A DNA stretch of 57,511 nucleotides, from NCBI GenBank assembly GCA_038065815.1, contig JBBTQF010000021.1, forward strand, positions 1-57,511, in the 5' to 3' direction. A program made the translations under genes and the position numbers. This DNA is from Patescibacteria group bacterium (GTDB lineage Bacteria; Patescibacteriota; Patescibacteriia; UBA9934; CAMTUG01). Under the pieces are notes generated by a model. It did not search any database, was not told where the DNA came from, and was given only the letters and a program-made list of their open reading frames with translations. Below, in pieces: positions 24,826 through 39,255 of this stretch. Numbering within the stretch: position 1 is the first letter of the stretch; the number at the start of each line of letters is the position of its first letter.

Positions 24826-26688
24826 ATGACCACGTTTCCGACGCCACCTTCATACGACCACGACCATGAAAATGATGTCATTTATTTTGCGCGCACGAAT
24901 TTTCGTAATCAGATGCGCAAGTTTGGTATCAAAACGGATGACCGCCGCCGTCATATGTATCTGATCGGCAAAACCGGCGTCGGAAAAACGACGCTTCTTG
25001 AAAATATGGTACTGGCGGATATCTATAAGGGGCACGGACTTGCGATTGTGGATCCGCACGGAGATTTTGCCGAAAAAATTATTGATTACATTCCAGATCA
25101 TCGTATTGAAGATGTTGTCTACTTTAATCCGGCGGATATGGATTTTCCGACGTCGTTTAATATTTTGGAGTCAGAAGACGACACACACAAGCACTTGATC
25201 GCCAGTGGTCTGATGGGAGTCTTCAAAAAGATTTGGCCAGATGTGTGGAGCGCGCGCATGGAGCATATCATGAATAATTGTATTCTGGCCTTGCTCGAGA
25301 ATCCGGGGAACACATTGCTCGGCATCAATCGTATTCTCGTTGACCAACATTTTCGTCGTAGCATCATTGTCAATTTGCGAGACCCTGTGGTCAAGTCTTT
25401 TTGGATCACAGAGTTCGAGCAGTGGGACGTTAAATTTCGCAGTGAGGCTATCGCCCCAATTCAAAACAAAGTTGGTCAGTTTTTATCAACGTCACTCATT
25501 CGCAACATAGTCGGTCAACCAGTCTCCTCAATCGTACCGCGCGAGATGATGGACACGCGTAAAATTTTCATTATCAACCTTGCCAAGGGTCGCATTGGTG
25601 AGGACGCCTCGCGTCTCATGGGCGGTATGCTCATTACCAAAATGCAACTTTCGGCAATGGAGCGCGTGGATATGCTGGAAAAGGACCGTCAAGATTTCTA
25701 TCTCTATATTGACGAGTTTCAAAACTTTGCCACCGAGTCATTTGCGAACATCTTGTCCGAGGCGCGTAAATATCGCCTTGCTCTTATCATGGCTCACCAG
25801 TACGTAGAACAGCTTGAGGAGGAGGTCGCGGCGGCCGTGTTTGGCAACGTGGGGACGATAGTTTCATATCGTGTAGGCGCTGGAGACGCAGAGAAACTTG
25901 CCATCGAATTCGCTCCACGTTTTTTGGAGGAAGATTTGGTGAATCTTCCAAAGTTTCATATTTATTTGAAGCTGATGATTGACGGAATTGCCTCTGATGC
26001 GTTTTCAGCAACGACCTTGCCCCCGATTGCGGCGAAAACGAACAGTTTACAGCGTGTGATTGACGCCTCGCGCAGAAAGTATGGCCACAAGCGCGAGGAG
26101 GTTGAGAACTCAATTATTTCATGGAGCGAGTCAAGACCGGAAGGAGCAACACCCTCGGCAGTAGCGGCGCTTGGACTTCGAGAGGAGAAGCAAGGACGAA
26201 AGCTCAATGAGTATGAGTGTACGCGTTGTGGCAAGAAGTTACTTTTGCCAGTTGAGCTCGATAAAAGTCGTCCAATTTATTGTGAGACGTGTATTGAGTT
26301 GGTGAGGGCGGAACGCAAAGCAGGCAAACCACCCGAGGTAAAAAAACCGGAGGAAAAGAAGGAGTCCGAGACACCAAAACTCGCACAGACGGAAGCGATT
26401 CAGAAGCCGGTAGGTGAGACGATGTCGTTAAGTGCGCTTAAGGGAGATCCAAAAATAGAGGTCAAATCGGTTACAGCGGAGAAGCCGGCTCCTGTCGTGC
26501 CTACACCCTCCTCACCAAGCCCCACGAGCACAGAGGAACACAAACGCCGTCGCCGGCGTCATGGCGGAGGTGGAGCTCATCATTCGACAGGTTTGACCCC
26601 TTCAACAAGCTCCGGGTCTTCGACTGGTACAAGCACTTCACACACTCCCAGGCCGAGCTCCGGTGGGGACGAATTATTCCCGTGGTAA
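24826..26688 (+). CDS. VirD4/TraD-like (FtsK-HerA superfamily) P-loop ATPase with C-terminal zinc ribbon and disordered tail
   Basis: Walker A LIGKTGVGKTT, DPHGD, Walker B YLYIDEFQNF, and RKYRLALIMAHQY. A C-x2-C-x17-C-x2-C motif (CTRCGKKLLLPVELDKSRPIYCETC) is followed by a K/E/P/S/T-rich tail. Confidence 0.75.
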   Translation: MTTFPTPPSYDHDHENDVIYFARTNFRNQMRKFGIKTDDRRRHMYLIGKTGVGKTTLLENMVLADIYKGHGLAIVDPHGDFAEKIIDYIPDHRIEDVVYFNPADMDFPTSFNILESEDDTHKHLIASGLMGVFKKIWPDVWSARMEHIMNNCILALLENPGNTLLGINRILVDQHFRRSIIVNLRDPVVKSFWITEFEQWDVKFRSEAIAPIQNKVGQFLSTSLIRNIVGQPVSSIVPREMMDTRKIFIINLAKGRIGEDASRLMGGMLITKMQLSAMERVDMLEKDRQDFYLYIDEFQNFATESFANILSEARKYRLALIMAHQYVEQLEEEVAAAVFGNVGTIVSYRVGAGDAEKLAIEFAPRFLEEDLVNLPKFHIYLKLMIDGIASDAFSATTLPPIAAKTNSLQRVIDASRRKYGHKREEVENSIISWSESRPEGATPSAVAALGLREEKQGRKLNEYECTRCGKKLLLPVELDKSRPIYCETCIELVRAERKAGKPPEVKKPEEKKESETPKLAQTEAIQKPVGETMSLSALKGDPKIEVKSVTAEKPAPVVPTPSSPSPTSTEEHKRRRRRHGGGGAHHSTGLTPSTSSGSSTGTSTSHTPRPSSGGDELFPW

Positions 26689-26690
26689 GT

Positions 26691-28175
26691 ATGCCTTCAA
26701 ATCAAGATGACTACTCTGGAGCTTTCAGCTCCGTTCAACCACAGCCAGTGGTGGCGCCAAAGCAAGCGTCTGAATTTGAGGCGTTCGTGGCCCGTCGTCA
26801 CGAGCCGCCGGAAACGCTTCCGATGCGCGGGGCCGTCTCTGATGCAGATATTTCCTTGTTTGGTCAGACGAATTACAGTCGCGGTTATGCCTCGGCGCGT
26901 TATATTTTTGGCATCAAACGAAAGGATCGCCGTCGTCACCTGTACGTCATTGGTAAGAGCGGTGTTGGAAAAACAAAATTGCTGGAACAGCTTATTCGCG
27001 CGGACATTCATTATGGACACGGCGTCGGGGTGATTGATCCACACGGAGATTTGATCAGCGCCATCATCGAGTTTGTGCCAGAAAATCGCATCAATGATGT
27101 TGTGATCATAGATCCTGCGGATCGTGATTTTCCCATCTCATTCAACCCAATCGCCAACGTGGCGGATGAAGACAAACACATGGTGACGGATTCCATCATC
27201 GAGATTTTTAAAAAGCAATTTGCCAGCGATTGGTCACCACGCATTGAACACTTGCTTCGTTTCTCAACGCTGGCCATGATTGATTATCCGAAAGGCACTC
27301 TCAACGGCATGGTGTCTCTGCTTTCAAGTGGCCCTTATCGCAGTAAGGTGATTGAGCACATCAAGGACACTGTCGTCCGGCGTTTTTGGGCGATTGAGTT
27401 TCCAGAGTGGTCGCAACGTTATGATGCCGAGGCAGTGTCGCCGTTGCTCAACAAACTCGGGCAATTGCTTGCCGATCCCTTGATGCGCAATATTTTTGGT
27501 CAGCAAGAGAGCAAGGTTGACCTTTACGAGATCATGCGTAAAAAACAGATTTTACTGGTCAACCTTTCAAAGGGGCGTATTGGGGATGATAAAAGTGCCT
27601 TTTTCGGAGCGGTGCTCATCACCAAACTTTATCAAGCCTCGATGCAACGAATCCGACTGCCGGAAAAAGAGCGCACGCCATACTACTTGTACGTTGATGA
27701 GTTTCAGAATATTGCCACAAAGACTTTTGAGAATATTTTGGCCGAGGCACGCAAGTTTGGACTCAATCTCACAGTCGCCAATCAAAATCTTTCCCAGCTC
27801 TCGGCGAGTTTGCGTTCGTCACTGTTTGGCAACGTGGCCAGTATAGTCGTTTTTCAAATCAGCGCGGAAGACGCGGCGATTATGGAGATGGAGATGAAGC
27901 CCGTGTTTGAGGTGCAGGATATGATTAACTTATCCGAGCGCGAGGTTTATGTGAAGATGACTATTGATGGACGTCGTTGGGATCCATTCTCGGCAGATGT
28001 CCTTTCTGTCAATCCACCAAAACATACTCCATTCACGGAAAAGATTATGATGCAGAGTCGAGAGAAATATGCACGGCGTCGGGAAGAAGTGGAAAAACAG
28101 CTTGAGGGAGGCGATGCGGAAGAACAAAAAAGGCAGGAGGCGCAGAAGATTTCCATGGATGAGATTATTGTGTAA
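26691..28175 (+). CDS. VirD4/TraD-like P-loop ATPase, paralog of 24826..26688
   Basis: VIGKSGVGKTK, DPHGD, YLYVDEFQNI and RKFGLNLTVANQN, collinear with the upstream ATPase core. The start is ATG 26691, 3 nt after the upstream stop. Confidence 0.75.
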   Translation: MPSNQDDYSGAFSSVQPQPVVAPKQASEFEAFVARRHEPPETLPMRGAVSDADISLFGQTNYSRGYASARYIFGIKRKDRRRHLYVIGKSGVGKTKLLEQLIRADIHYGHGVGVIDPHGDLISAIIEFVPENRINDVVIIDPADRDFPISFNPIANVADEDKHMVTDSIIEIFKKQFASDWSPRIEHLLRFSTLAMIDYPKGTLNGMVSLLSSGPYRSKVIEHIKDTVVRRFWAIEFPEWSQRYDAEAVSPLLNKLGQLLADPLMRNIFGQQESKVDLYEIMRKKQILLVNLSKGRIGDDKSAFFGAVLITKLYQASMQRIRLPEKERTPYYLYVDEFQNIATKTFENILAEARKFGLNLTVANQNLSQLSASLRSSLFGNVASIVVFQISAEDAAIMEMEMKPVFEVQDMINLSEREVYVKMTIDGRRWDPFSADVLSVNPPKHTPFTEKIMMQSREKYARRREEVEKQLEGGDAEEQKRQEAQKISMDEIIV

Positions 28176-29778: not shown

Positions 29779-29859
29779 ATGTCAAACACTCCTAACTACG
29801 ACTCATCCCACTTCGCTCCTTCGGAGCTACGAGGGATTTCGTCAAAAATATATGAGTAA
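29779..29859 (+). other. 26-codon upstream ORF plus hairpin element preceding paralog 1
   Basis: Encodes MSNTPNYDSSHFAPSELRGISSKIYE*. The first 9 codons copy the paralog N-terminus, and the TAA stop overlaps the main ATG (29852) by 8 nt. Contains the hairpin GCTCC-TTC-GGAGC (29815-29827). A near-identical unit sits at 35269..35349. Confidence 0.5.
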
Positions 29860-31582
29860 GACCCCAATTTTTGACTCAAAAGTAAAAGCGATCCTCGACG
29901 CCACGCAGCCCGGCGAACGGGTGTGTGAAATGACCGGGGAGAAGTGGATGATGGATGCCGAGGAGATTTCTTGGTACAAAAAGTTCAACGTGCCACCGTC
30001 ACCGTTTTCGCCGCGCGTGCGCATGTGGCACATGACCAACTTTTTTGCCGTGTATCAGTGGTGGTGGAATAAGCATCCAGAAACCGGCGCGCCGGTGTTG
30101 AGCTATGTCCATCCGGCTTCGAAGATTAAGGTCTTGCCGGACAAGGAGTGGTTTGAGCGTGAGATGGCGGATTATGGACGTGCGATTGACTCGAGTCGAT
30201 CGTTCCTCGATCAATTCCGCGCGCTTCAACTTGACGTGCCGATTAACGCCACGCGCAACTTTGTTGATCCAGAGAATTCCATCGCCACGGTTTCGCTCGG
30301 CGATCGTAATGGTTATTTTGTCTCTGCGTCGCAATCGGAGGATTCGTTTTACTTGCTCGACACCCAGTTTGGCACGCGCACCATGGACGCTAACGGTGGC
30401 ATCAACGTGACGGATTCTTACCACATCAATCATTCGTTGCGTTTGCATGGCTGTCAGTTTATTTACGAGTCGCGCGATTGCATGAGCTCGTCTTTTTTGT
30501 TTGATTGTCGTAACTGCGAGTTCTGTTTTGGTGCCGCCAATAAACGTAATCGCAAATACGTCTGGTTTAATGAGCAGTTGAATAAGGAAGAATGGGAACG
30601 CCGACGGGCAGAAGTTGATCTTGGAAGCTATGCGCAAATGACTGCGACATTTGATCGTTTTACCAAATTGATTCGCGAAGAAGCCATTTGGCCGCAGAAT
30701 TTTAACGAAGGCTCAGAAGACTGCTTGGGCGATTACTTAATCAAGTGCAGTGATTTACAACATTGCTTGTACGGCATCGATAGTCACGGCGGATATTTTT
30801 GCTACGGTTTGTATAATGGCAATGACAACGCTTTTAGTTGCGCCATTCCTGGCGAGCATAATTATCAATCTGGGCCCGTTGGCAATACGTCGAACTCACG
30901 ATTTTCTTGTACGCTCGTGCGTTGTGACAATTTAGAGTACAGCATGAACTGCTACGACTGTACCGATTGTTTCGGTTGTGTCGGTCTGCGCAAAAAGCAA
31001 TTCCATATTTTTAACAAAGCGTATGCTGAAGAAGAATATTGGAAGGTCCTCGACGAGATCAAGTGCGCCATGCTTGAGCACGACGAATATGGCCGTCCGT
31101 TTCCGATCAACTTTGGATTCAACTATTATCCTGATTCCGGGCCGGTGATGTATTTTGGTGCGACGATTGAAGATTGGGATGTGGTCGGACGCGACCACTT
31201 CGAGGCCTCCGCCGACGGCGCATTTGGCACGCTGTCACTTGATGATCCGCGGATGCGCGAAGTCGATCAACTACCTGATCATATTCGCGACCTCGACGAC
31301 GACTGGATCGGTAAGCCTATTGCTGATCGCGCCATCAATCGCCCGTTCGCCCTTACCAAGGCTGAAGTCAACTATCTTAAAAAGTTTAACCTAGCCGCTC
31401 CGCGCCGACACTTCACCGCCCGCATGCTCGACTTGTTCTATTCTATGAGTAGCGGTCCCTTCATTGAGCAGACCTGTTTCTCCTGTGCCAAGCAGGTTGT
31501 CATGGCCACCAATCGCGCGTATCCTGAGCGTAAGGTTTATTGCAATGTATGTTATTTGAAGTATCTTGAAGTTCACGGATAA
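29852..31582 (+). CDS. Cys-rich repeat protein, tandem paralog 1 of 5 (uncharacterised family)
   Basis: MSKTPIFDSKVKAILDA..., FLFDCRNCEFCFGAANKRNRKYVWFNEQLNKEEW, CYDCTDCFGCVGLRKKQFHIFNKAYAEEEYW, and the C-terminal CFSC-x18-CNVCYLKYLE. The listed 29684 start is an out-of-frame-conserved extension. Confidence 0.8.
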   Translation: MSKTPIFDSKVKAILDATQPGERVCEMTGEKWMMDAEEISWYKKFNVPPSPFSPRVRMWHMTNFFAVYQWWWNKHPETGAPVLSYVHPASKIKVLPDKEWFEREMADYGRAIDSSRSFLDQFRALQLDVPINATRNFVDPENSIATVSLGDRNGYFVSASQSEDSFYLLDTQFGTRTMDANGGINVTDSYHINHSLRLHGCQFIYESRDCMSSSFLFDCRNCEFCFGAANKRNRKYVWFNEQLNKEEWERRRAEVDLGSYAQMTATFDRFTKLIREEAIWPQNFNEGSEDCLGDYLIKCSDLQHCLYGIDSHGGYFCYGLYNGNDNAFSCAIPGEHNYQSGPVGNTSNSRFSCTLVRCDNLEYSMNCYDCTDCFGCVGLRKKQFHIFNKAYAEEEYWKVLDEIKCAMLEHDEYGRPFPINFGFNYYPDSGPVMYFGATIEDWDVVGRDHFEASADGAFGTLSLDDPRMREVDQLPDHIRDLDDDWIGKPIADRAINRPFALTKAEVNYLKKFNLAAPRRHFTARMLDLFYSMSSGPFIEQTCFSCAKQVVMATNRAYPERKVYCNVCYLKYLEVHG

Positions 31583-31606
31583 AACCAAAACCCCGCTTGC
31601 GCGGGG
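31581..31606 (-). terminator. intrinsic terminator for the minus-strand RNA
   Basis: The minus strand reads CCCCGC-GCAA-GCGGGG followed by UUUUGGUUUU. On the plus strand the hairpin has no U-tract after it. Confidence 0.7.
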
Positions 31607-31693
31607 AGTTGGCAGTCTCGATTCGGTACGAGTGACCTGGATTGCTACCTAAATCAAGAGTATCCTAATTTAGGATTGTCGTCAAACTGTTTG

Positions 31694-31764
31694 TGGTGGA
31701 GGCGCGGGGATTTGAACCCCGGAAACCATGGGTAGCAATCCAGGTTTCGTATCAAACCGCCCCC
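31694..31764 (-). ncRNA. tRNA-like element (Ala-type acceptor, T-arm, encoded CCA, no D-arm)
   Basis: The minus strand reads GGGGGCG GUUUGAUAC GAAACC-UGG-AUUGCUAC-CCA-U-GGUUUC CGGGG-UUCAAAU-CCCCG CGCCUCC A CCA. It has a 7-bp acceptor stem with G3.U70, a perfect T-arm with a consensus-like loop, and a long arm whose loop carries UGC. It is only 71 nt and lacks a D stem-loop. Confidence 0.5.
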
Positions 31765-31776
31765 ACCACAGTAAAA

Positions 31777-31782
31777 ATTATA
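31777..31782 (-). promoter_or_regulatory. -10 box (TATAAT) for the minus-strand tRNA-like transcript
   Basis: The minus strand reads TTGGGA, 18 nt, TATAAT, 6 nt, then UGUGGU-GGGGGCG. This puts the predicted start at about 31770. Confidence 0.45.
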
Positions 31783-31789
31783 TTAAAAT

Positions 31790-33529
31790 ATGGCTTCCAC
31801 TCCCAACTACGATGCTAAAGTAAAAGCGATCCTCGATGCCACAACGCTTGGTGAGCGTGTTTGTGCGATCACAGGAGAGAAGTGGACGCAGGACTCCAAG
31901 GAGCTGGAGATTTACCGTCGCTTCAATGTACCGCCACTGAAGATTTGCACCAACGCTTTATGGAAGTGGATGGCATTTTATGATGCCGGATTTCAATTTT
32001 GGTGGAATAAGCACGCCGAGACGGGGAAGCCGGTGCTCAGTTTTCATCATCCCGCTTCCGGGATCCGCGTTCTGCCCGACGTCGAATGGCATGCTAAAGA
32101 TTTTTCCACCATCACTGCCGATGTCGATCCGACCAAATCGTTTTTCGATCAGCTTCGCGCTCTCGAACTCTGTGTTCCTTTTATGGCGACGTTTGATCGC
32201 CAGCCACCGGAGAACTCGATCACTCTTTTCTCCTTTGGCGATCGCAATAGCTACTTCACTTTCGCATGTCAGTCCGAGCGCTGTTTCTTTTCTGCTGGCG
32301 CCTTTCAAGCTGAAGGTTCGTCGCTCTTGTGGCTCACCAATCAAATCACCGACAGTCATTGGATTTTGAAATCCGACCGTCTGTTTCGCTGTCGCTATGT
32401 TCGTGAGTCGTTGGATTGTATCGACAGTGCCTTTTTGTTTGACTGCCGTAATTGCCAAAATTGTTTTGGGGTCGTCAACAAACGCAATCGTCAATACCTG
32501 TTCATGAATGAGCAGTTGAGCAGGGCCGAGTACGAAGCCCGAATGTTGACGATTGATCTTGGCAAGCGATCGGAAGTGGAAAAATACAGCCAGCAATTCG
32601 ATGCACTGCTCGCCAAGGAAGGCGTTTGGCCGGAAAACTTCAACGTCAACACCCAAGAATCCGTTGGTGAATATTTGGTTAACGCTGTGCGCTCACAGCA
32701 ATGCTTTGCCGCCGCAGACGCTCCGACCGATCAGTATCGCAGTGCGTGGTCTTATGGACTCAATCAACACAACGCTAACATGTGGGGATCGATCGACAGC
32801 AGTGATTGCTATATGTCCGTGGCTTGTCCAAACTCGAGCAAAAGTAATTTTTCTTACCGCTCGTTCCGTTTGGATAACTGCGAGTTCTGCGTCATGTCGT
32901 CGGATCTACGCGATTGTTTTGGGTGTGTAGGTCTGAAGAAAAAACGGTTTTGTATTTTCAACAAACAGTACACGGAGGAGGAATATTGGAGAATCGTCGA
33001 TGAAATCAAATCGGCGATGTTGGAGAGGGGAGAATATGGAACGTATTTGCCAACTGCGTTGTCGACGACTTTCGTGCCAGAGTCTGGCGCGGTGGTCTAT
33101 ACCGGCGCTTCACCCGAGGAGCTGGCCATGTTTGGAGGGAATTTGTTTGGCGCCGAAGACGATGGAGCCACCGGAGCCGATCGCATTGATCCAAGCAAGG
33201 CTCGCAAGCGCGAGGACATTCCGGACGCGATTGATGATTTAACGGACGAATGGGTCGGCGTACCCATTTACGACGAAGTTTCCAAACGCACTTTCACCTT
33301 TTTGCGTCCAGAAGTGGAGCATTACCGCCGCCTGCGTGTTGCCCCGCCAAACATCCATTTTATTCGCCGTCTGCATGAAGTTTCTCACGCCGGCCAGGTG
33401 GCGGCCTTCGAACCTGCCAGCTGTACCAAATGCCAACAAGCGGTCACCATCGCCAAAAATATTCGCTACCCCCACCGCCGCATTTATTGCAGAGCCTGTT
33501 ATACGGCGTTTGTGGAAAAGAATGGATGA
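31790..33529 (+). CDS. Cys-rich repeat protein, tandem paralog 2 of 5
   Basis: MASTPNYDAKVKAILDA..., FLFDCRNCQNCFGVVNKRNRQYLFMNEQL, CFGCVGLKKKRFCIFNKQYTEEEYW, and CTKC-x18-CRACYTAFVEKNG. Confidence 0.8.
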   Translation: MASTPNYDAKVKAILDATTLGERVCAITGEKWTQDSKELEIYRRFNVPPLKICTNALWKWMAFYDAGFQFWWNKHAETGKPVLSFHHPASGIRVLPDVEWHAKDFSTITADVDPTKSFFDQLRALELCVPFMATFDRQPPENSITLFSFGDRNSYFTFACQSERCFFSAGAFQAEGSSLLWLTNQITDSHWILKSDRLFRCRYVRESLDCIDSAFLFDCRNCQNCFGVVNKRNRQYLFMNEQLSRAEYEARMLTIDLGKRSEVEKYSQQFDALLAKEGVWPENFNVNTQESVGEYLVNAVRSQQCFAAADAPTDQYRSAWSYGLNQHNANMWGSIDSSDCYMSVACPNSSKSNFSYRSFRLDNCEFCVMSSDLRDCFGCVGLKKKRFCIFNKQYTEEEYWRIVDEIKSAMLERGEYGTYLPTALSTTFVPESGAVVYTGASPEELAMFGGNLFGAEDDGATGADRIDPSKARKREDIPDAIDDLTDEWVGVPIYDEVSKRTFTFLRPEVEHYRRLRVAPPNIHFIRRLHEVSHAGQVAAFEPASCTKCQQAVTIAKNIRYPHRRIYCRACYTAFVEKNG

Positions 33530-33530
33530 T

Positions 33531-35267
33531 ATGAGTAACACCCCCAACTACGACGCCAAAGTAAAAGCCATCCTCGACGGGCTCACGCCCGGGGAGCGGG
33601 TTTGTGCTATCACGGGCGAGAAGTGGATGATGACGGAGGAGGAGATTGGGTGGTACAGGAAGTTCAATGTCCCGCCGTCGAAGTATTCTCCAAGTGCGCG
33701 CATCAAACTGGTTATGGGATACTTTGTTGTTTTTGACATGTGGTACAACAAGCACGCCGACACGGGCGCGCCAATTATCTCCACAACCCACCCCGCCTCA
33801 GGCATTCGTGTCCTCCCAGATTTGGAATGGTTTAATCGAGATTTCATTTCTCACGGACAAAATTTGCAGGCATCAAATTCTTTTTTTGACCAACTCTACG
33901 CACTGAGTCGACGTGTTCCTGTTGCCGCTACCTTTAATTATAAGGTCCCGGAAAACTCGGTGGCTTTTATTTCGTTTGGTGATCAAGACAGCTACTTTGT
34001 GCTGGCCTGTAAGTCCAAGCGCTCCTTCTTTTGCGGGAATGCCCATGATGTGGAGGATTCGGCTGAACTCGTCGCCGTGGAAAATGTCAGACAGTCATAC
34101 GCAGTGGTGCACAGCCAGCGTATTTTTAATTGCCGTTTTTTGCTGGAATGTTATGACTGCATAAACTTGCATTTTCTTTTTGATTGCCGAAACTGTGAGT
34201 TCTGTTTTGGTGCTACCAATCAACGGAATAAAAAGTATTTATGGTTCAATGAGCAGTTGAGCAAGGAAGAGTGGGAGCGACGTTTTGCCGAGATTGACCT
34301 TCGCTCACGTGAGGCACTTGATGAGATACAGCAACATTTTTCGGAGTTGATGCAGACACAAACTGTCTGGCCGGAGAATTTTAATGTCAATGCCGTCGAC
34401 TCAAGCGGAGAATACATTATTGAGTCGACAGATGTGCGTGACGGCTACTACATCATGCGTGGCTGTCGTAATTTAGATAACAGCTGCTACGCCTTTGGCT
34501 TACCGTCGCATGATTGCTACACCGTCTGCGCGCCGATTGGCGCCTCGGATTGTTATTACGGGATTGGACAAGAGCAGTGCTCACAGGTGCGCTTCGCCTT
34601 GTCTATCCTAGCTCGTAACATGAATACCGAATATTGCAATGTTTGTTTTGATTGCGAGAATTGCTTTGGTTGTATCGGTCTGCGTCACAAGAAGTTTTGT
34701 ATTTTGAACAAGCAATACACGGAAGAGGAGTACTGGAAGGTCCTTGATGAACTGAAGTGTGCCATGCTTGACCGTGGAGAATACGGCGAGCTGCCACCTA
34801 TGAAGTTTGGGACTCAACACTGGAGCGGCTCTGGTGCTCGGGTGTTGTACGGAGCGAGCAAGGATGAGTGTTTGAAGCTTGGTGCCGTCGACTTTCCGGT
34901 CGGCGCAGAGGGGTCTGAAGGCCCAATTGTTGATTCCGCGTCCCTGCATTCACTCGACTCAATTCCAGACCGCATCGACTCAATCGAAGAGGTGACTGGC
35001 AAACCGTACTTCGATCCCGCTGCAAATCGTCGTTTTAGTTATCAAAAGACCGAGCTCGAACTGTACGCCAGGCTCGGTGTAGCACCGCCGCGCAAACATC
35101 CGACGCGTCGACTGACAGATCATTACCACGAAATGAGCATGGCTGTTTTTGAGGACGGACACTGTGAAAAGTGCAACCAACAAATACGCGTTGCCAAGAA
35201 TATGACGTATCCAAATCGAAAATTATATTGCAAATCCTGTTATTTGGCGTTTATCGAAACTCGCTAA
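33531..35267 (+). CDS. Cys-rich repeat protein, tandem paralog 3 of 5
   Basis: MSNTPNYDAKVKAILDG..., starting 1 nt after the paralog-2 stop (junction AATGGATGATATGAGT). FLFDCRNCEFCFGATNQRNKKYLWFNEQL, CFDCENCFGCIGLRHKKFCILNKQYTEEEYW, and CEKC-x18-CKSCYLAFIE. Confidence 0.8.
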   Translation: MSNTPNYDAKVKAILDGLTPGERVCAITGEKWMMTEEEIGWYRKFNVPPSKYSPSARIKLVMGYFVVFDMWYNKHADTGAPIISTTHPASGIRVLPDLEWFNRDFISHGQNLQASNSFFDQLYALSRRVPVAATFNYKVPENSVAFISFGDQDSYFVLACKSKRSFFCGNAHDVEDSAELVAVENVRQSYAVVHSQRIFNCRFLLECYDCINLHFLFDCRNCEFCFGATNQRNKKYLWFNEQLSKEEWERRFAEIDLRSREALDEIQQHFSELMQTQTVWPENFNVNAVDSSGEYIIESTDVRDGYYIMRGCRNLDNSCYAFGLPSHDCYTVCAPIGASDCYYGIGQEQCSQVRFALSILARNMNTEYCNVCFDCENCFGCIGLRHKKFCILNKQYTEEEYWKVLDELKCAMLDRGEYGELPPMKFGTQHWSGSGARVLYGASKDECLKLGAVDFPVGAEGSEGPIVDSASLHSLDSIPDRIDSIEEVTGKPYFDPAANRRFSYQKTELELYARLGVAPPRKHPTRRLTDHYHEMSMAVFEDGHCEKCNQQIRVAKNMTYPNRKLYCKSCYLAFIETR

Positions 35268-35268
35268 T

Positions 35269-35349
35269 ATGTCCAAAACGCCCAATTACGACGCATCCCA
35301 CTTCGCTCTTGCAGAGCTACGTAAGGACTGCGTCAAAATTTATGAATAG
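35269..35349 (+). other. 26-codon upstream ORF plus hairpin element preceding paralog 4
   Basis: Encodes MSKTPNYDASHFALAELRKDCVKIYE*. Same 73-nt offset to the main ATG (35342) as at paralog 1. The hairpin is GCTCT-TGC-AGAGC (35305-35317). Confidence 0.5.
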
Positions 35350-37072
35350 GACTCCAAATTTTGACTTGAAGGTAAAAGCCATCCTCGACGCTACCAAACC
35401 CGGCGAGCGGGTGTGTCCGATTTCGGGGGAAACGTGGATACTCACGAGCGAAGACATTGAGCGGTATCGCGGTTGGGGAGTGCCACCGCCGATTTATTCG
35501 CCAACGATTCGCATGAAAGAGCTCGCCGGTTGGGGCGCGGGGATTGATTTGTGGTGGAAGCCGCATTTTCAAACCGGTAAAGCGATTCTGTCTGGCATCC
35601 ATCCAGATTCTTTTAGTCCAGCCATAACTGACAAAGAGTGGTTTGAAAAAGATTGGGGTGCGGAGCATCCGCTCGATGTTGATCTTGCCAAACCCATCCT
35701 AGAGCAAACCAAGCCGCTGTTCGATCGCGTGCCATATCCTGCGCTATCAACCCACGGTTCAGTTAATTGTGTTGGATGTGGCATAGTTGACTGTGTTGAC
35801 TCCTACATGGTTTTTGGCAGTAAAATGGTCAAAGATAGTTGGTACGCCTTCCGCACCCAGTACAGCGAACGGGTGATGGACGCGCCGTTTTTACTACGCT
35901 GTGAAAACGTTTTTGCTTCGGCCAAGTCTGTTAGCTGCAATAACTGCGTCAGCATTTTTGAGTGCAACCAGTGCATCAACTCGGCATTTTTGTTTGATTG
36001 TCAGAATTGCGAAGAGTGTTTTTGTTCATCAAACTTGCGCCACAAGCAGTACGTTTTCATGAATGAACAATTGAACAAAGAAGAATATCAAAAGCGCATG
36101 GCGGAAATTGATTTGTCCTCGACAGCACAGTTTGAACAATGGAAAACTACCTTCCGTCATCTGGTAGGTGAAAAAACCATTTGGCCGGAAAACTTCAGTG
36201 TCAATGTGCAGAACTGTGTTGGGGAGGGAATGATGGATTGTCTCGACTGTTCTGGATTTTTGATGGACAACTCCCGTAATATTCAAAACGGCTGGAACAT
36301 TTTTGATTCCGAGCACTTGGATACCGTGGTCATCTCCTATAATTCCAACGATTGTTATGGCGTCAGTGTGGCCCTCGCTTCGCACAACATCAAGTTTTCT
36401 TTCGTTGCCTACCAGTCGCAGGATTGCGAGTACGTGGTCAATTGCTACAACTGCGAGCATTGTTTTGGTTGTGTCGGACTCAACCGCAAGAAGTTTAATA
36501 TTTTCAACAAGCAGTACAGTGAACAAGATTATTGGCGACTTGTCGACGAAATCAAATGTGCCATGCTGGAGCGGGGAGAGTATGGACGATTTTTCCCGGC
36601 GGCTTATTCTCCGCTCGGCATGAAATACGGCTACGGCTATGTCGTTGCTCCGTTGACGAAGGAAGAACTCACCAAGCTCGGAGGACTCGATTTGGATCCA
36701 ATCGCGGGAATGCGCTTCGCGCCGTACGACGTTAACGCTCCGACATCAAATGTTGACGAAGTCCCTGATCGGATTGTGGATATAACTGATGAATGGGTCG
36801 GGAAGCAATTTTTTGACGCTGAAGCCAATCGGCGTTATGCAGTAAACGCTCAAGAGCTTGCTTATCGAAAAGAACACGGCTATCCATTCCCGCTTCGGCA
36901 CTACACGTCGCGGCTGAAGGATATAGTCGCTTCCTGCAACGGACCCATCCAGGAGTCAGCGCGTTGTGCCAAGTGCAACAAGGAGATTATGACCAGCTCA
37001 AGCACTATTTACTCTAAACGCACCGTTTATTGTAAGGCGTGTTATTTAAAGTTTATTGAATCTAACGGATAA
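35342..37072 (+). CDS. Cys-rich repeat protein, tandem paralog 4 of 5
   Basis: MNRTPNFDLKVKAILDA..., FLFDCQNCEECFCSSNLRHKQYVFMNEQL, CYNCEHCFGCVGLNRKKFNIFNKQYSEQDYW, and CAKC-x18-CKACYLKFIESNG. Confidence 0.8.
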   Translation: MNRTPNFDLKVKAILDATKPGERVCPISGETWILTSEDIERYRGWGVPPPIYSPTIRMKELAGWGAGIDLWWKPHFQTGKAILSGIHPDSFSPAITDKEWFEKDWGAEHPLDVDLAKPILEQTKPLFDRVPYPALSTHGSVNCVGCGIVDCVDSYMVFGSKMVKDSWYAFRTQYSERVMDAPFLLRCENVFASAKSVSCNNCVSIFECNQCINSAFLFDCQNCEECFCSSNLRHKQYVFMNEQLNKEEYQKRMAEIDLSSTAQFEQWKTTFRHLVGEKTIWPENFSVNVQNCVGEGMMDCLDCSGFLMDNSRNIQNGWNIFDSEHLDTVVISYNSNDCYGVSVALASHNIKFSFVAYQSQDCEYVVNCYNCEHCFGCVGLNRKKFNIFNKQYSEQDYWRLVDEIKCAMLERGEYGRFFPAAYSPLGMKYGYGYVVAPLTKEELTKLGGLDLDPIAGMRFAPYDVNAPTSNVDEVPDRIVDITDEWVGKQFFDAEANRRYAVNAQELAYRKEHGYPFPLRHYTSRLKDIVASCNGPIQESARCAKCNKEIMTSSSTIYSKRTVYCKACYLKFIESNG

Positions 37073-37074
37073 GT

Positions 37075-37442
37075 ATGTCCCTGTCTAGAAATAACTTTGC
37101 TTACATCGATGGTGCTAATCTCTACAAAGGTGTGGCTGGAGACGGCTGGAAACTTGATTATCGTCGCTTTCGTGTCTGGTTGGAAGAAAAGTACGGTGTG
37201 AGCTGTTGTTGATGTTTATGAACAAAATTGTGACAAGGCCATTATTGTTTCTGGAGATGGTGACTATGCCAGTTTGGTTGTATTTTTGAGTGAAAAAAGA
37301 AAGTTGGTCTCGATTCTTTCTCCAAACAAGCACTGTTCTATTCTTCTGAAAAGGACGAACGTGGCGATTGGATACCTGATGGATTATCGACCTCGTATAG
37401 GCCAAAAATGAAAAGGCCCCCGATGCAGACGAAACTGCATAA
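37075..37442 (+). pseudogene. NYN-domain gene remnant (internal deletion plus frameshifts)
   Basis: MSLSRNNFAYIDGANLYKGVAGDGWKLDYRRFRVWLEEKYGVSCC* aligns with the first 43 aa of the intact NYN gene. The frame then shifts to ..DVYEQNCDKAIIVSGDGDYASLVVFLSEKRKLVSILSPNK.., and shifts again to KKAPDADETA* (compare KKKGPHKDGTL*). About 50 central codons are missing. Confidence 0.75.
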
Positions 37443-37496
37443 GGGTCCTTTTCGTAGTGATGACTATAAGATACCATTCTTTCAGAATTTGTCAAT

Positions 37497-37637
37497 ATGT
37501 CCAACACACCGGTCAAAATGGAAAACACCTGCTTTGATTGCGGCAAGCCGGTCACCACTTACGTCAACAATCTTTTTACCGAGCGTCATGTATACTGTCG
37601 AGAGGATTACCTCAAGTTTATCGAACAAAATGGCTGA
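37497..37637 (+). CDS. 46-aa collapsed paralog (N-terminal 5 residues fused to the C-terminal zinc ribbon)
   Basis: Encodes MSNTPVKMENTCFDCGKPVTTYVNNLFTERHVYCREDYLKFIEQNG*. It keeps the family junction (..AATGGCTGATATGTCC) with paralog 5, and the last Cys of the ribbon is replaced by Asp. It may be a remnant rather than a functional gene. Confidence 0.4.
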   Translation: MSNTPVKMENTCFDCGKPVTTYVNNLFTERHVYCREDYLKFIEQNG

Positions 37638-37638
37638 T

Positions 37639-39255
37639 ATGTCCAAGACTCCGAACTTCGACAGCAAAATTAAAATGATTATTGACGTCATGCCGCAAGA
37701 TAATGATGCCGAAATTTGTCGCAAATTTCAGGTACCGCCGATCGGCATGGAGCCGGATAAATTGCTTGACTATTTGAATGGCTTCAACACCGGTTTGGCC
37801 TTTTTCTGGAAGCCTCACATGACGACCGGTCGGCCGCTTCTCTCCGCGATTCATCCGGACAATCCGATTCCCATCGTCAGCGAAGACGAGTGGGCTTCGG
37901 CGGATTATACTAGTGCGGCGCAAGAGATTGATCCGACTCGATCAGTGATGGATCAACTGTGGGACTTGGTAACGACCGTTCCCCATAATCCAACACGCTG
38001 TGTGCAAGCCGTTAACTCCATTGCCATTGGGTGTGTTGGCGTACAGAATTGCTATTGCGTCGCCGGTTCGCATTTACTTAACCGTTGTTTTTATACCTAC
38101 GCCCTTATTAAAGGGGAGGATTGCATTGACGTCGGCAACGGTATTCAGGTGGCGCGATCTTATCAGTGCGGCGGGAGCAACGAGATCAGTGATTGTCAGT
38201 TTGTTTATGAGTCGCGGGCCTGTCTGAACTCCTCATTTCTGTTTGACTGCTGGAATTGCGACTCCTGCTTCGGCGCCACGAATCAGCGCCATAAAAAATA
38301 TATTTGGTTCAACGAGCAGTTAAGCAAAGAGGAATATCAACAACGTGTTGGTCAGATAGATTTATCCGATGCTGACGTCGTTGAAGCATACTGGCAAAAG
38401 TTTTTCACGCTTTGGAAATCGCAAGGTGTCTGGCCGTTCGCCTTTTCCGTTGGTAACACCGAGGCGGAAGGGGAACATCTGTTTGGGTGCGTTCGTTGTG
38501 ACGGGTGTTTTTTGCAGAGTAAATCGACAGACTGTTATCGTTGTCGGTTTGGTCTGGAAAATAGCGGTTGCGCCTATACCTCTGGCGGAGGTTACGAACA
38601 AGATTGTTACCTGTCTACCGGCGGAGGCTACGGGGCAAAAAACAAATTTTGCGCCGGTACAAACAAGTGTATTTCTTGTGAGTACTGTCACAACTGTCGT
38701 GACTGCGAAAATTGTTTTGCTTGCGTTGGTCTTCAGCGTAAAAAATTCTGCGTCTTCAATAAGCAATACACGGAAGAGGAATACTGGCCGCTGGTAGACG
38801 AACTCAAAACTAGGATGCTTGCGAGTGGGGAGTATGGCCGTTTTTTTGAGGCCAAATTTTCTCCGTCAGGATTCCAATACTCTGCCGGGGAACTCTACGT
38901 CAGCTATTCCGCGCAACGTCTGCGTGAATACGATGCGCCGACGTTTGATCCTCGCCGTGGTCAGGTGCTCGGCCCGCAACCAACAGACCAGGCGATCTAT
39001 GACCCTGAAATTGGGCGGTACTACACGATCACTTCAGTCGAGAGACAGATGTATAAGGCCAAGCATTGGCCACTGCCGCGTAAGCACTTTGTTACACGGC
39101 TGACCGAACTCATCCGATTGTCTAATTCACCAATCGTTGAGGAGGCCGTCTGTGGATTGTGCGCGCAAGCGATAGTCACTTATAGAAATTTTTCTTTTCC
39201 CGAGCGGACGGTGTATTGTAATGAGTGTTATCTTAAGTTTTTGGAGACTAAATAA
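37639..39255 (+). CDS. Cys-rich repeat protein, tandem paralog 5 of 5 (shorter, divergent)
   Basis: MSKTPNFDSKIKMIIDV..., FLFDCWNCDSCFGATNQRHKKYIWFNEQL, CENCFACVGLQRKKFCVFNKQYTEEEYW, and CGLC-x18-CNECYLKFLETK. It lacks the ERVC..TGEKW block and part of the C-terminal region. Confidence 0.75.
   Translation: MSKTPNFDSKIKMIIDVMPQDNDAEICRKFQVPPIGMEPDKLLDYLNGFNTGLAFFWKPHMTTGRPLLSAIHPDNPIPIVSEDEWASADYTSAAQEIDPTRSVMDQLWDLVTTVPHNPTRCVQAVNSIAIGCVGVQNCYCVAGSHLLNRCFYTYALIKGEDCIDVGNGIQVARSYQCGGSNEISDCQFVYESRACLNSSFLFDCWNCDSCFGATNQRHKKYIWFNEQLSKEEYQQRVGQIDLSDADVVEAYWQKFFTLWKSQGVWPFAFSVGNTEAEGEHLFGCVRCDGCFLQSKSTDCYRCRFGLENSGCAYTSGGGYEQDCYLSTGGGYGAKNKFCAGTNKCISCEYCHNCRDCENCFACVGLQRKKFCVFNKQYTEEEYWPLVDELKTRMLASGEYGRFFEAKFSPSGFQYSAGELYVSYSAQRLREYDAPTFDPRRGQVLGPQPTDQAIYDPEIGRYYTITSVERQMYKAKHWPLPRKHFVTRLTELIRLSNSPIVEEAVCGLCAQAIVTYRNFSFPERTVYCNECYLKFLETK

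What the first reader, a model, noticed from the sequence alone, without database searches (positions are those of the whole stretch)
31581..31789. Antisense tRNA-like RNA unit between paralogs 1 and 2, with a trailer complementary to its own anticodon-like arm
Seen in sequence, reading the minus strand: a perfect TATAAT box (31782-31777) is followed 7 nt later by UGUGGU, then a 71-nt tRNA-like module. The module has a 7-bp acceptor stem GGGGGCG/CGCCUCC with a G3.U70 wobble, a perfect T-arm CGGGG-UUCAAAU-CCCCG, discriminator A and an encoded CCA. It has no D-arm, only a 9-nt connector GUUUGAUAC. It also has a 9-bp bulged arm whose 8-nt loop AUUGCUAC contains UGC. The 5' leader UGUGGU pairs with ACCACA across the CCA end. 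The transcript continues past the CCA. It runs through a 7-bp palindrome (AUCCUAA-A-UUAGGAU) and a 15-nt segment (plus strand 31635-31649) that is perfectly complementary to the anticodon-like arm (31731-31745). It ends at a GC-rich hairpin plus UUUUGGUUUU terminator abutting the paralog-1 stop. Established knowledge: G3.U70 is the alanine identity element shared by tRNA-Ala and the tmRNA tRNA-like domain, and UGC is an Ala anticodon. The connector GAUACGA resembles the GAUUCGA D-loop analogue of tmRNAs. Inference: this is not a standard tRNA. It could be a D-armless Ala-tRNA mimic, a tmRNA-TLD-like minimal RNA, or a processed/regulated RNA whose trailer masks the anticodon arm. Its position inside the paralog array, antisense to it, is striking.
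Basis: partly seen in the sequence, partly recalled or inferred. Interest (0 to 1): 0.65.

Follow-up and report, generated by a model that had tools for sequence, protein, structure and literature searches.

The report
tmRNA-like mini RNA with antisense partner
Between two genes of a groundwater Uhrbacteria (CPR) genome lies a compact cassette of two small RNA genes: a 71-nt alanine-type tRNA-like RNA that resembles the tRNA-like domain of tmRNA, and a partner RNA whose first 15-16 bases pair with it. The pairing is kept by compensatory changes in other CPR genomes, and I found no description of such a pair.

Summary
The 71-nt module is not a tRNA. ARAGORN and Rfam at gathering score find nothing. 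Its loop varies between homologues, so UGC is not an anticodon.

The module is a divergent relative of the CDS-less, TLD-only tmRNA forms. These are known from mycobacteriophage DS6A and some organelles. Here I found them in 61 viral contigs and in Saccharibacteria MAGs. A covariance model built from the phage forms scores the window module 46.5 bits (E about 1e-8), against 21-28 bits for true tRNAs.

The trailer is best read as a second gene, B. In all seven related CPR units a sigma-70-like -35/-10 pair sits exactly 6 nt upstream of a seed complementary to the module's hairpin 5' strand and loop. A hairpin and terminator follow the seed.

B lies in tandem with the module in four Uhrbacteria-type units and convergent to it in three Peregrinibacteria/Peribacteria units. 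Loop and seed co-vary, with three double compensatory changes in L131 and different cognate pairs in the other lineages.

Best reading: an Ala-acceptor tmRNA-TLD mimic (A) controlled or neutralised by a dedicated antisense RNA (B). Transcription, charging and SmpB binding are untested. The kind of RNA is known; the paired arrangement is a new variant.

The parts
31777..31806 (-). Promoter P1 of RNA A: -35 TTGGGA (31806-31801), 18-nt spacer, -10 TATAAT (31782-31777). The -35 box lies inside the first codons of paralog 2, which is on the other strand.
   Evidence: Consensus scan, 10 of 12 positions. The -10 box is conserved in L131, L223 and L224.
31765..31770 (-). 5' leader UGUGGU. It pairs with ACCACA (31697-31692) and extends the acceptor stem over the CCA end in the primary transcript.
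   Evidence: MFE fold. GUGGU/ACCAC(U) is kept in all four Uhrbacteria-type units.
31694..31764 (-). RNA A, a 71-nt tmRNA-TLD-like, alanine-type tRNA-like RNA. Segments: acceptor 5' strand 31764-31758; connector (D-loop analogue) 31757-31749; hairpin 31748-31722 with loop AUUGCUAC at 31739-31732; T arm 31721-31705; acceptor 3' strand 31704-31698; ACCA 31697-31694.
   Evidence: Sequence and fold. TLD-only covariance model R1 gives 46.5 bits, E 1.5e-8, full length. Seven CPR homologues show 95% paired cells, 10 of 18 pairs with changes on both sides, and invariant G3.U70.
31657..31685 (-). Putative promoter P2 of RNA B: -35 TTGACG (31685-31680), 17-nt spacer holding the non-conserved palindrome, -10 TACTCT (31662-31657). 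Six nt (31656-31651) separate it from the seed.
   Evidence: The same architecture occurs in all 7 units: 16-18-nt spacer and exactly 6 nt from the -10 box to the seed. The surrounding sequence and its length vary. In W itself the -10 box is weak, so P2 matches only 8 of 12 positions.
31581..31650 (-). RNA B, a partner small RNA of about 70 nt. Its seed AGGUAGCAAUCCAGGU is at 31650-31635, of which 31649-31635 are perfectly complementary to A at 31745-31731. UCGUA (31631-31627) is complementary to A's UACGA. A small hairpin lies at 31632-31617, the terminator stem at 31606-31591 and the U tract at 31590-31581.
   Evidence: Inverted repeat I2. Conservation and covariation. The seed is unpaired in B's own fold, and forming the A:B dimer gains about -18.7 kcal/mol. 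Terminator scan.
29852..31582 (+). Paralog 1, a convergent neighbour. Its stop codon abuts the cassette's terminator.
   Evidence: Called genes. The same arrangement is seen in L131 and L225.
31790..33529 (+). Paralog 2, a divergent neighbour. Its start codon lies 7 nt from the -10 box of P1.
   Evidence: Called genes. The same arrangement is seen in L131.

Best explanation
The 207-bp spacer is a self-contained cassette of two small RNA genes on the minus strand.

**RNA A.** Gene A runs from promoter P1 and makes a 71-nt RNA. It has a 7-bp acceptor stem with the alanine identity pair G3.U70, discriminator A, an encoded CCA, a T arm, no D stem, and a single hairpin where tmRNA has helix P2a. 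This is the architecture of the CDS-less, TLD-only forms of tmRNA.

**RNA B.** Gene B runs from promoter P2 to the shared terminator and makes a small RNA of about 70 nt. Its extreme 5' end is a 15-16-nt seed. The seed is complementary to the 5' strand and loop of A's hairpin, and a further 5 nt pair with A's D-loop analogue.

**Shown here.** The structure of A, the A:B complementarity, its conservation and covariation across CPR lineages, and the conserved promoter-to-seed architecture of B.

**Inferred.**
- A is processed to a CCA end, charged by AlaRS and/or bound by SmpB, as other TLD-only RNAs are thought to be. It therefore interferes with or substitutes for part of trans-translation.
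- B starts pairing at A's loop and unzips the hairpin and core. This inactivates A or marks it for cleavage by a double-strand RNase.
- B thus acts as a dedicated regulator or antidote. In the tandem Uhrbacteria arrangement the same pairing can also occur in cis in the unprocessed A precursor, which must read through B.
For: **A resembles TLD-only tmRNA.**
- Rfam's best local hit is tmRNA.
- A pattern scan retrieved 45 distinct 63-81-nt TLD-only RNAs from 61 viral contigs and from CPR MAGs. All those tested pass the Rfam tmRNA gathering score. They show strong covariation and an invariant G3.U70.
- The model built from them scores W at 46.5 bits, against 21-28 bits for true tRNAs.
- TLD-only forms are documented in PMC4131195 and PMC11915505. 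Those papers report that such a molecule inhibits tmRNA.

**Homologous units.**
- L223 and L224.
- L131, at the syntenic site between two paralogs downstream of two VirD4-like genes.
- L222, L221 and L059.

**A:B pairing.**
- 15 of 15 pairs form in all four Uhrbacteria-type units. There are three double compensatory changes and one C-G to U.G change. Slid controls give only 12-38% paired.
- In L222, L221 and L059 the loop sequences differ and each has its own cognate seed, encoded on the opposite strand.
- Cognate cofold gain is -15 to -27 kcal/mol. Non-cognate pairs gain -0.7 to -10 kcal/mol. The exception is W and L223, whose seeds are identical and whose crosses give -13.6 and -22.7.

**B is a gene.**
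- A -35/-10 pair with a 16-18-nt spacer sits exactly 6 nt before the seed in 7 of 7 units. The spacer between CCA and P2 varies from 42 to about 110 nt.
- The seed is unpaired in B's own fold, and a hairpin and terminator follow it.

**Other.**
- The acceptor stem shows a compensatory change, C6:G67 to U6:A67.
- No other target of the seed exists in the 57.5-kb window.
Against: - There is no strand-specific RNA evidence. The only metatranscriptome signal is one unstranded 169-nt contig at depth 2 (31554-31722). It crosses both the CCA end and the terminator, so it could equally be operon mRNA or DNA.
- W fails the Rfam tmRNA gathering score, 28.2 against 47 bits, matching the 3' half only.
- The D-loop analogue has UG rather than the GG of TLDs. 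The GAC linker before the T arm is missing.
- Three of the four Uhrbacteria-type homologues have G instead of U at T-loop position 54. This argues against a fully canonical tRNA-like elbow.
- P2's -10 box in W itself is weak (TACTCT).
- The covariation rests on few independent sequences: four Uhrbacteria-type units, of which three are distinct, plus three more distant units.
- Whether these genomes also have a normal ssrA and smpB could not be checked.
Confidence: 0.55

Rival explanations
1. B is the effector small RNA with other, unseen mRNA targets. A is a stable tRNA-like sponge or decoy that titrates B, in the way the tRNA-precursor spacer 3'ETS-leuZ sponges small RNAs in E. coli (my own knowledge, not checked here).
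For: - B has the classical 5'-seed, hairpin and terminator design.
- The complementarity is symmetrical, so the data do not say which RNA regulates which.
Against: - No second match to the seed exists in the 57.5-kb window, even with 3 mismatches.
- The seed differs completely between lineages while always matching the adjacent A. That is more natural for a private pair than for a regulator of conserved mRNAs.
Confidence: 0.15
2. There is one transcript from P1 to the terminator, and the trailer folds back on the hairpin to mask it or to control 3' processing. There is no separate B RNA.
For: - In the four tandem units no terminator separates A from the seed, so the A precursor must contain it.
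- The leader-CCA pairing suggests that the precursor structure matters.
Against: - In L222, L221 and L059 the complementary element is on the other strand, beyond A's terminator. It can only act in trans there.
- A promoter-like pair keeps a fixed 6-nt distance to the seed in 7 of 7 units.
- The MFE of the full W transcript keeps the TLD fold rather than the trailer pairing.
Confidence: 0.15
3. The repeats act at the DNA level, as two binding sites for a recombinase or regulator (an invertible or excisable segment), and not through RNA pairing.
For: - The two copies are inverted in some genomes and direct in others. A DNA site could tolerate that.
- Paralog junctions are insertion hot spots.
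Against: - One copy always coincides exactly with the loop and 5' strand of a covarying RNA hairpin. The other always sits 6 nt after a promoter and before a terminator on the appropriate strand.
- G.U wobbles are tolerated in L131, L221 and L222. That fits RNA pairing, not identical DNA sites.
- No recombinase gene is adjacent, and no inverted or deleted variant appears in the laid contigs.
Confidence: 0.05
4. It is a decayed tRNA-Ala or ssrA remnant, for example an integration scar, with no function. The complementarity is accidental.
For: - tRNA and tmRNA genes are common integration sites (PMC11915505).
- In L222 a 12-nt copy of A's 3' end lies 72 nt downstream.
- Relatives with the closest paralog-2 orthologues lack the unit.
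Against: - Both acceptor strands are intact.
- The whole cassette is conserved in at least four genomes at three different loci, while its internal spacer drifts.
- Compensatory changes occur in A's helices and in the A:B duplex.
Confidence: 0.03
5. It is a D-armless decoding tRNA-Ala(UGC) used in translation.
For: G3.U70, ACCA, a T arm, and UGC in the W loop.
Against: - The loop is 8 nt.
- UGC is absent from the L131 loop (AUUAUCAC) and from the L221 and L059 loops.
- Loop variation tracks the partner RNA, not a codon.
- ARAGORN does not call it.
Confidence: 0.02

Closest known systems
CDS-less (TLD-only) tmRNA forms: mycobacteriophage DS6A, jakobid mitochondria, Mallomonadaceae plastids (PMC4131195, PMC11915505). 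Also the 45 distinct phage and Saccharibacteria examples retrieved here.
   Same: - 63-81-nt RNA with a 7-bp acceptor stem, G3.U70, ACCA and a T arm.
- No D stem and a single P2a-like hairpin.
- No tag reading frame.
- A full-length, significant match to a model built from the retrieved examples.
   Different: - W fails the Rfam tmRNA gathering score, which those forms pass.
- W has a single G in the D-loop analogue, no GAC linker, and a longer bulged hairpin with an 8-nt loop.
- W is chromosomal in CPR bacteria rather than part of a phage tRNA array.
- W has a dedicated complementary partner RNA. None of the 41 other distinct TLD-only modules scanned has a comparable one: their longest complements are 9 nt or shorter, and the direct-orientation partners of L221 and L222 could not be detected by that scan.
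Full-length tmRNA (ssrA, Rfam RF00023) with SmpB
   Same: The alanine-acceptor tRNA-like domain. By inference, the same AlaRS and SmpB partners.
   Different: - No pseudoknots, no resume codon and no tag ORF.
- A 1-nt indel between homologues rules out a conserved reading frame in B.
- It cannot carry out tagging or normal termination.
RNA-RNA toxin-antitoxin pairs: type I, and type VIII such as SdsR/RyeA and CreT/CreA (PMC10767807, PMC10097628)
   Same: - Two adjacent small genes, one of whose RNAs is complementary to the other.
- Patchy distribution, found in spots that carry classical TA modules in relatives.
- The RNA-toxin concept.
   Different: - Toxicity of A is not shown.
- A is a tRNA-like RNA, not an mRNA or a tRNA-sequestering small RNA.
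- No Cas involvement.
- The pairing is a 5'-seed against a hairpin loop, in tandem or convergent non-overlapping genes.
Small RNA and sponge pairs derived from tRNA precursors (3'ETS-leuZ; my own knowledge), and mascRNA-type tRNA-like processing modules (Rfam RF01684)
   Same: A tRNA-like element physically linked to a regulatory RNA segment. mascRNA gave a weak hit of 28.2 bits against a gathering score of 42.5.
   Different: - Those are by-products of real tRNA operons or of eukaryotic lncRNAs.
- Here both partners are dedicated genes and co-vary.

Membership tests
tmRNA / TLD-only tmRNA | 7-bp acceptor stem with G3.U70, discriminator A and a 3' CCA | tested here: met
   GGGGGCG/CGCCUCC + ACCA. 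G3.U70 is invariant in 6 of 6 distinct CPR homologues and in 28 of 28 phage forms.
tmRNA / TLD-only tmRNA | T arm of 5 bp with a canonical 7-nt T loop (UUCRANY) | tested here: inconclusive
   W has CGGGG-UUCAAAU-CCCCG. L131, L223 and L224 have UGCAAAU, with G at position 54.
tmRNA / TLD-only tmRNA | No D stem, and a D-loop analogue of the form ..GG(A/U)(A/U)(A/U)CGA | tested here: inconclusive
   There is no D stem. W has UGAUACGA, so the CGA is kept and there is one G instead of GG. L131 has AGUGCGA.
tmRNA / TLD-only tmRNA | P2a-type helix leaving the core, joined to the T arm by a GAC/CAC linker | tested here: not met
   A helix is present, 9 bp with a bulge. No linker is present: the 3' strand runs straight into the T arm. 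By contrast 43 of 45 reference sequences have a G/C-A-C/U linker.
tmRNA / TLD-only tmRNA | Reaches the Rfam RF00023 gathering score | tested here: not met
   28.2 bits against 47, truncated 3' match only. Phage and Saccharibacteria TLD-only forms score 48-77 bits.
tmRNA / TLD-only tmRNA | Full-length significant match to a covariance model of TLD-only forms, above true tRNAs | tested here: met
   R1 gives 46.5 bits, E 1.5e-8, model positions 1-70. True tRNAs in the same search score 21-28 bits.
tmRNA / TLD-only tmRNA | Alanylation by AlaRS and binding of SmpB | not testable with these tools
   Needs biochemistry. smpB and ssrA are not in the window, and the rest of the genome is not available.
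Full tmRNA | mRNA-like domain with a resume codon, tag ORF and stop | tested here: not met
   There is no room for it in A. B and the spacer have no conserved frame, given indels and variable length.
Canonical tRNA-Ala | Cloverleaf with a D arm, a 7-nt anticodon loop and a conserved anticodon | tested here: not met
   ARAGORN finds 0 genes. The loop is 8 nt and UGC is not conserved.
Antisense RNA pair / RNA-RNA toxin-antitoxin (type I or type VIII-like) | Two adjacent independently transcribed RNAs with extended, co-varying complementarity | tested here: met
   The promoters are predicted only.
Antisense RNA pair / RNA-RNA toxin-antitoxin (type I or type VIII-like) | One RNA is toxic and the other neutralises it | not testable with these tools
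   Only the analogy with the reported inhibition of tmRNA by a TLD-only molecule (PMC4131195).
tRNA/tmRNA integration scar | A partial 3' gene fragment duplicated from a full gene, with no selection on it | tested here: not met
   Both acceptor strands are present. The cassette is conserved at three loci with compensatory changes.

The most novel reading that the evidence does not exclude
The cassette is an RNA-only addiction or conflict module of CPR bacteria. A is a tmRNA-TLD mimic that poisons or hijacks ribosome rescue by titrating SmpB, AlaRS or EF-Tu. B is a cognate antisense RNA that keeps A harmless. Together they would form a toxin-antitoxin pair in which both partners are structured non-coding RNAs and the toxin is a tRNA mimic.
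Probability: 0.2. Interest if true: 0.85.

Novelty: new variant of a known kind. Interest (0 to 1): 0.72.

Why it matters
TLD-only tmRNA-like RNAs have been treated as rare curiosities: one mycobacteriophage and a few organelles. This work shows two things.

- They are common in uncultivated phages.
- A divergent chromosomal branch in several CPR lineages comes with a private antisense partner whose pairing is maintained by compensatory evolution.

If A really engages AlaRS and SmpB, the pair would be the first example of trans-translation machinery being modulated by a dedicated RNA-RNA switch, or of an RNA-only toxin-antitoxin built on a tRNA mimic. CPR bacteria have reduced translation systems and no genetics.

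The idea is directly testable with two short synthetic RNAs, recombinant AlaRS and SmpB, and expression in E. coli. The finding also gives annotators a new non-coding gene pair that tRNA, tmRNA and Rfam tools all miss.

Tried and rejected
- **Standard detectors.** ARAGORN (tRNA and tmRNA) and Rfam at gathering score on the whole window found nothing.
- **Phage collection.** blastn with the locus and with the module alone gave only T-arm/acceptor matches to att sites and to tmRNAs of Caulobacter phages.
- **A loose genome pattern.** This wasted one genome scan.
- **Recent-insertion idea.** Six closer paralog-2 orthologue loci lack the unit. However, the neighbouring paralog in L150 is not the orthologue of paralog 1 (45% identity), and the unit is present at the syntenic site in the distant L131/L225. 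I therefore dropped the simple "lineage-specific insertion" reading in favour of patchy retention or array rearrangement.
- **Permuted or two-piece tmRNA, or a tag ORF in the trailer or B.** Rejected. The tmRNA_permuted hit is 17 bits and spurious, and there is no conserved reading frame.
- **Partner complement in the TLD-only class.** Among the 41 other distinct TLD-only modules scanned, the longest complements were 9 nt or shorter. The direct-orientation partners of L221 and L222 could not be detected by that scan.
- **W-type module or seed in viral contigs.** None found.
- **RNA evidence.** Only one unstranded, low-depth metatranscriptome contig. No RNA runs hold L223 or L224.
- **Seed of the further variant in groundwater run X6** (run X4 holds other variants). 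Read laying does not print the internal 85 nt, so it could not be read.
- **More units next to relatives of the L131 paralog.** Four look-ups found none.
- **Function of the paralog family.** No Pfam, NCBIfam or PDB-sequence hit. A confident AlphaFold model found no Foldseek match.
Full report
**1. The observation**

- TATAAT lies at 31782-31777.
- The leader UGUGGU precedes a 71-nt module at 31764-31694.
- The module has acceptor stem GGGGGCG/CGCCUCC with G3.U70, a 9-nt connector, a 9-bp bulged hairpin with loop AUUGCUAC, T arm CGGGG-UUCAAAU-CCCCG, discriminator A and an encoded CCA.
- A trailer follows and ends in a GC hairpin plus UUUUGGUUUU, abutting the stop codon of the upstream gene.

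The predicted MFE structure of the 195-nt transcript is exactly this fold, with the leader paired to ACCACA. The z-score is -6.8, and the module alone folds the same way.

The 15-nt complement (31635-31649 against 31731-31745) is perfect. These are the only two matches in the window even with three mismatches allowed. A consensus scan finds a TTGGGA-18-TATAAT promoter and the terminator on the minus strand.

**2. What it is not**

ARAGORN finds no tRNA or tmRNA in the whole window. Rfam finds nothing at gathering score. In a permissive local search the best hits are tmRNA (28.2 bits, 3' half only, gathering score 47) and mascRNA (28.2 against 42.5).

The module is therefore neither a standard tRNA nor a standard tmRNA. 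The tmRNA_permuted hit (17 bits) merely aligns the terminator and is spurious.

**3. Context**

The window is a chromosomal piece of a groundwater Candidatus Uhrbacteria (Patescibacteria/CPR) genome.
- It carries SecA, SecDF, TsaD, MnmA, LepA, Mur genes and two VirD4/TrwB-like genes.
- The "paralogs" are five tandem genes of about 576-615 aa. They belong to a very large CPR family with no Pfam, NCBIfam or PDB relative.
- A confident AlphaFold model (pTM 0.84) has no Foldseek match.

**4. The module belongs with TLD-only tmRNA forms**

A structure-shaped pattern first retrieved a 65-nt Saccharibacteria RNA and 71-nt Acidobacteriota RNAs.

The literature documents tmRNA forms reduced to the tRNA-like domain (TLD). 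These occur in mycobacteriophage DS6A, jakobid mitochondria and Mallomonadaceae plastids. A similar molecule is reported to inhibit tmRNA, perhaps by titrating SmpB (PMC4131195; PMC11915505).

A pattern for that architecture found 61 viral contigs and 9 genome contigs, giving 45 distinct 63-81-nt sequences.
- All have G3.U70, a GG(W)3CGA connector, a variable hairpin, a GAC/CAC linker, a T arm and ACCA.
- All that I tested pass the Rfam tmRNA gathering score.
- About a third of the phage copies lie in tRNA arrays.
- Their three helices co-vary strongly: 98.6% of cells are paired and 11 pairs change on both sides, against 49-58% paired in slid controls.

A covariance model built from 28 phage sequences (R1) gave these scores:

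| Sequence | R1 score |
|---|---|
| Saccharibacteria RNAs | 62-75 bits |
| Window module, full length | 46.5 bits (E about 1.5e-8) |
| True tRNAs | 21-28 bits |

The window module is thus a significant but divergent relative. It has UG instead of GG in the D-loop analogue and lacks the GAC linker.

**5. Homologous units and the second gene**

A metagenome scan for the hairpin stem with any loop found two units, L223 and L224. Searching paralog loci with R1 found another, L131.

Alignment shows which parts are conserved.
- Conserved: the module, a 16-mer (AGGUAGCAAUCCAGGU in W), a small hairpin and the terminator.
- Variable: the stretch between CCA and the 16-mer, which ranges from 42 to about 110 nt.
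- Exception within the variable stretch: a TTGAC(A/G) box, 17 nt, a TAnnnT box and 6 nt.

Three further CPR modules retrieved by the pattern scans are L222 and L059 (Peregrinibacteria) and L221 (Peribacteria). Each carries a copy of its own hairpin-loop sequence nearby in direct orientation. The complement is therefore on the opposite strand, where a hairpin and terminator follow it.

A uniform scan shows the same architecture in all seven units. A -35/-10 pair matching 8-11 of 12 positions, with a 16-18-nt spacer, ends exactly 6 nt before the first seed nucleotide on the strand that carries the complement.

I conclude that the "trailer" is a separate small RNA gene, B. Its 5' end is a seed against A's hairpin 5' strand and loop.

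**6. Evidence that A and B pair**
- In the four Uhrbacteria-type units 15 of 15 positions pair in every sequence. L131 differs from W by three adjacent double compensatory changes in the loop (GCU to AUC in A, AGC to GAU in B) and one C-G to U.G change. Slid controls give 12-38% pairing.
- The more distant units have different loops, each with a cognate 12-16-nt seed: AUUGUCAC, AAUUGACAUC and ACUUGACGC.
- B also pairs with A's D-loop analogue. W has UCGUA against UACGA, and L059 has CCAGAAU against AUUCUGG.
- Cofolding favours the cognate dimer by 15-27 kcal/mol. Non-cognate combinations gain 0.7-10 kcal/mol. The exception is W and L223, whose seeds are identical and whose crosses give 13.6 and 22.7.
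- The seed is unpaired in B's own fold.
- A's own helices also co-vary among the seven CPR modules: 95% paired, 10 of 18 pairs with changes on both sides, G3.U70 invariant. This alignment was fitted to the model, which biases it towards the model's structure.
- Among the 41 other distinct TLD-only modules scanned, none had a downstream or upstream complement longer than 9 nt. That scan could not detect the direct-orientation partners of L221 and L222.
- The W-type module and seed are absent from viral contigs.

**7. Location**
- L131 (and L225) has the unit between two paralogs that follow two VirD4-like genes, as in the window. The site is syntenic, although the proteins are only 43-45% identical.
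- L059 has its module convergent to a tandem pair of family members.
- L223 lies upstream of ksgA, L224 lies between a peptidase and a HIT gene, and L221 lies after a gene that looks like a superoxide dismutase from motifs in its alignment.
- Loci with the closest paralog-2 orthologues (60-83% identity) lack the unit. Some of them carry a DUF433/PIN-like toxin-antitoxin pair, a transposase or other cargo at paralog junctions. Their arrays are rearranged.

The distribution is therefore patchy. The association with the paralog family is suggestive but not established.

**8. Mechanism**

Shown:
- Two adjacent RNA genes.
- A folds like a TLD-only tmRNA with alanine identity elements.
- B's 5' seed is complementary to A, and the complementarity is maintained by compensatory change.

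Inferred, from established knowledge of tmRNA-SmpB and of TLD-only molecules (PMC4131195):
- A is matured by RNase P and 3' trimming to a CCA end. It is recognised by AlaRS through G3.U70 and may bind SmpB. It thereby modulates ribosome rescue.
- B nucleates on the 8-nt loop, invades the hairpin and D-loop analogue, and inactivates or destabilises A.

Points against a fully canonical TLD role:
- The Rfam score is sub-threshold.
- The GG and the GAC linker are missing.
- Three homologues have G54 in the T loop.

Expression is unproven. The only RNA signal is an unstranded, depth-2 contig spanning 31554-31722.

**9. Rivals**

| Reading | Assessment |
|---|---|
| B as effector and A as sponge | Not excluded |
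| Purely cis masking | Contradicted by the convergent units |
| DNA-level sites | Disfavoured by G.U tolerance and by the promoter and terminator context |
| Decayed scar | Contradicted by conservation and covariation |
| Decoding tRNA-Ala(UGC) | Contradicted by the variable 8-nt loop |

**10. Novelty and verdict**

TLD-only tmRNA-like RNAs are known. A chromosomal CPR branch with a dedicated, co-varying antisense partner did not turn up in the papers I searched, and none of the tools annotates it.

I class it as a new variant of a known kind. Interest is about 0.7. There is a 0.2 chance that it is an RNA-only toxin-antitoxin built on a tRNA mimic.

Noticed in passing
window 29852-39255 (five tandem genes); L131, L059, L127-L149, L229-L232: A very large CPR-restricted protein family of about 576-615 aa, with more than 1500 homologues and several tandem copies per genome. 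It has no Pfam, NCBIfam or PDB-sequence match. A confident AlphaFold model (pTM 0.84) has no Foldseek PDB hit. The N- and C-terminal domains of about 60 aa are homologous to each other, and the middle carries Cys-rich C..C..CFGC repeats.
   Followed up: partly
L151-L153, L152 1322-2380, L229 2257-2631, L232 739-1323, L133/L135 upstream of 4001: Junctions between tandem paralogs carry different cargo in different genomes. Examples are a DUF433/PIN-like toxin-antitoxin pair, an rve transposase, a glyoxalase, an unknown 194-aa ORF and long inverted-repeat (MITE-like) elements. The junctions behave as insertion hot spots.
   Followed up: partly
L154-L214 (IMG/VR viral contigs), L001, L215-L217 (Saccharibacteria MAGs), L218-L220: 61 viral contigs and several MAG contigs carry 63-81-nt TLD-only tmRNA genes, 45 of them distinct. 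All that were tested pass the Rfam tmRNA gathering score. About a third of the phage copies sit inside tRNA arrays. This is far more than the single phage example (DS6A) cited in the papers I read.
   Followed up: partly
L002 3325-3500, L003 3104-3400, L004 4850-4920: Acidobacteriota MAGs carry 71-nt D-armless G3.U70 modules with loop CUGCAAA (R1 35-36 bits). Further aberrant tRNA-like sequences follow directly, and ARAGORN does not call them.
   Followed up: no
L134 5859-5933; L142 5795-5829: A 75-nt cloverleaf that ARAGORN calls tRNA-Leu(UAG) has a GGGCCCG/CGGGUCC acceptor stem with G3.U70 and no long variable arm. It lies just downstream of a paralog. L142 has a similar 3' half in the same position.
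   Followed up: no
L160 5277-5565: An Rfam group I intron hit (82 bits) overlaps the TLD-only tmRNA hit at 5423-5488 in a viral contig.
   Followed up: no
window 31692-31769 as seen in groundwater runs X4 and X6: Other contigs in the same aquifer samples carry variants of the unit. One in run X6 has loop CUUAUCAU, connector UUGGUGCGA, the same terminator and a TTGACA box 12 nt after CCA. Its seed could not be read with the tools.
   Followed up: partly
L222 3312-3323: A 12-nt copy of the module's 3' end (ACGGCTCCACCA) lies exactly 72 nt downstream of the real CCA end. It falls inside the convergent partner RNA, so that RNA could also pair with A's acceptor 3' strand. Alternatively it is an att-like scar.
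   Followed up: no
window 24826-28175 and L225 1-2462: Two adjacent VirD4/TrwB-like coupling-protein genes precede the paralog array both in the window and in the distant relative L225. In the window, TsaD and a NYN-domain gene lie between them and the array.
   Followed up: no
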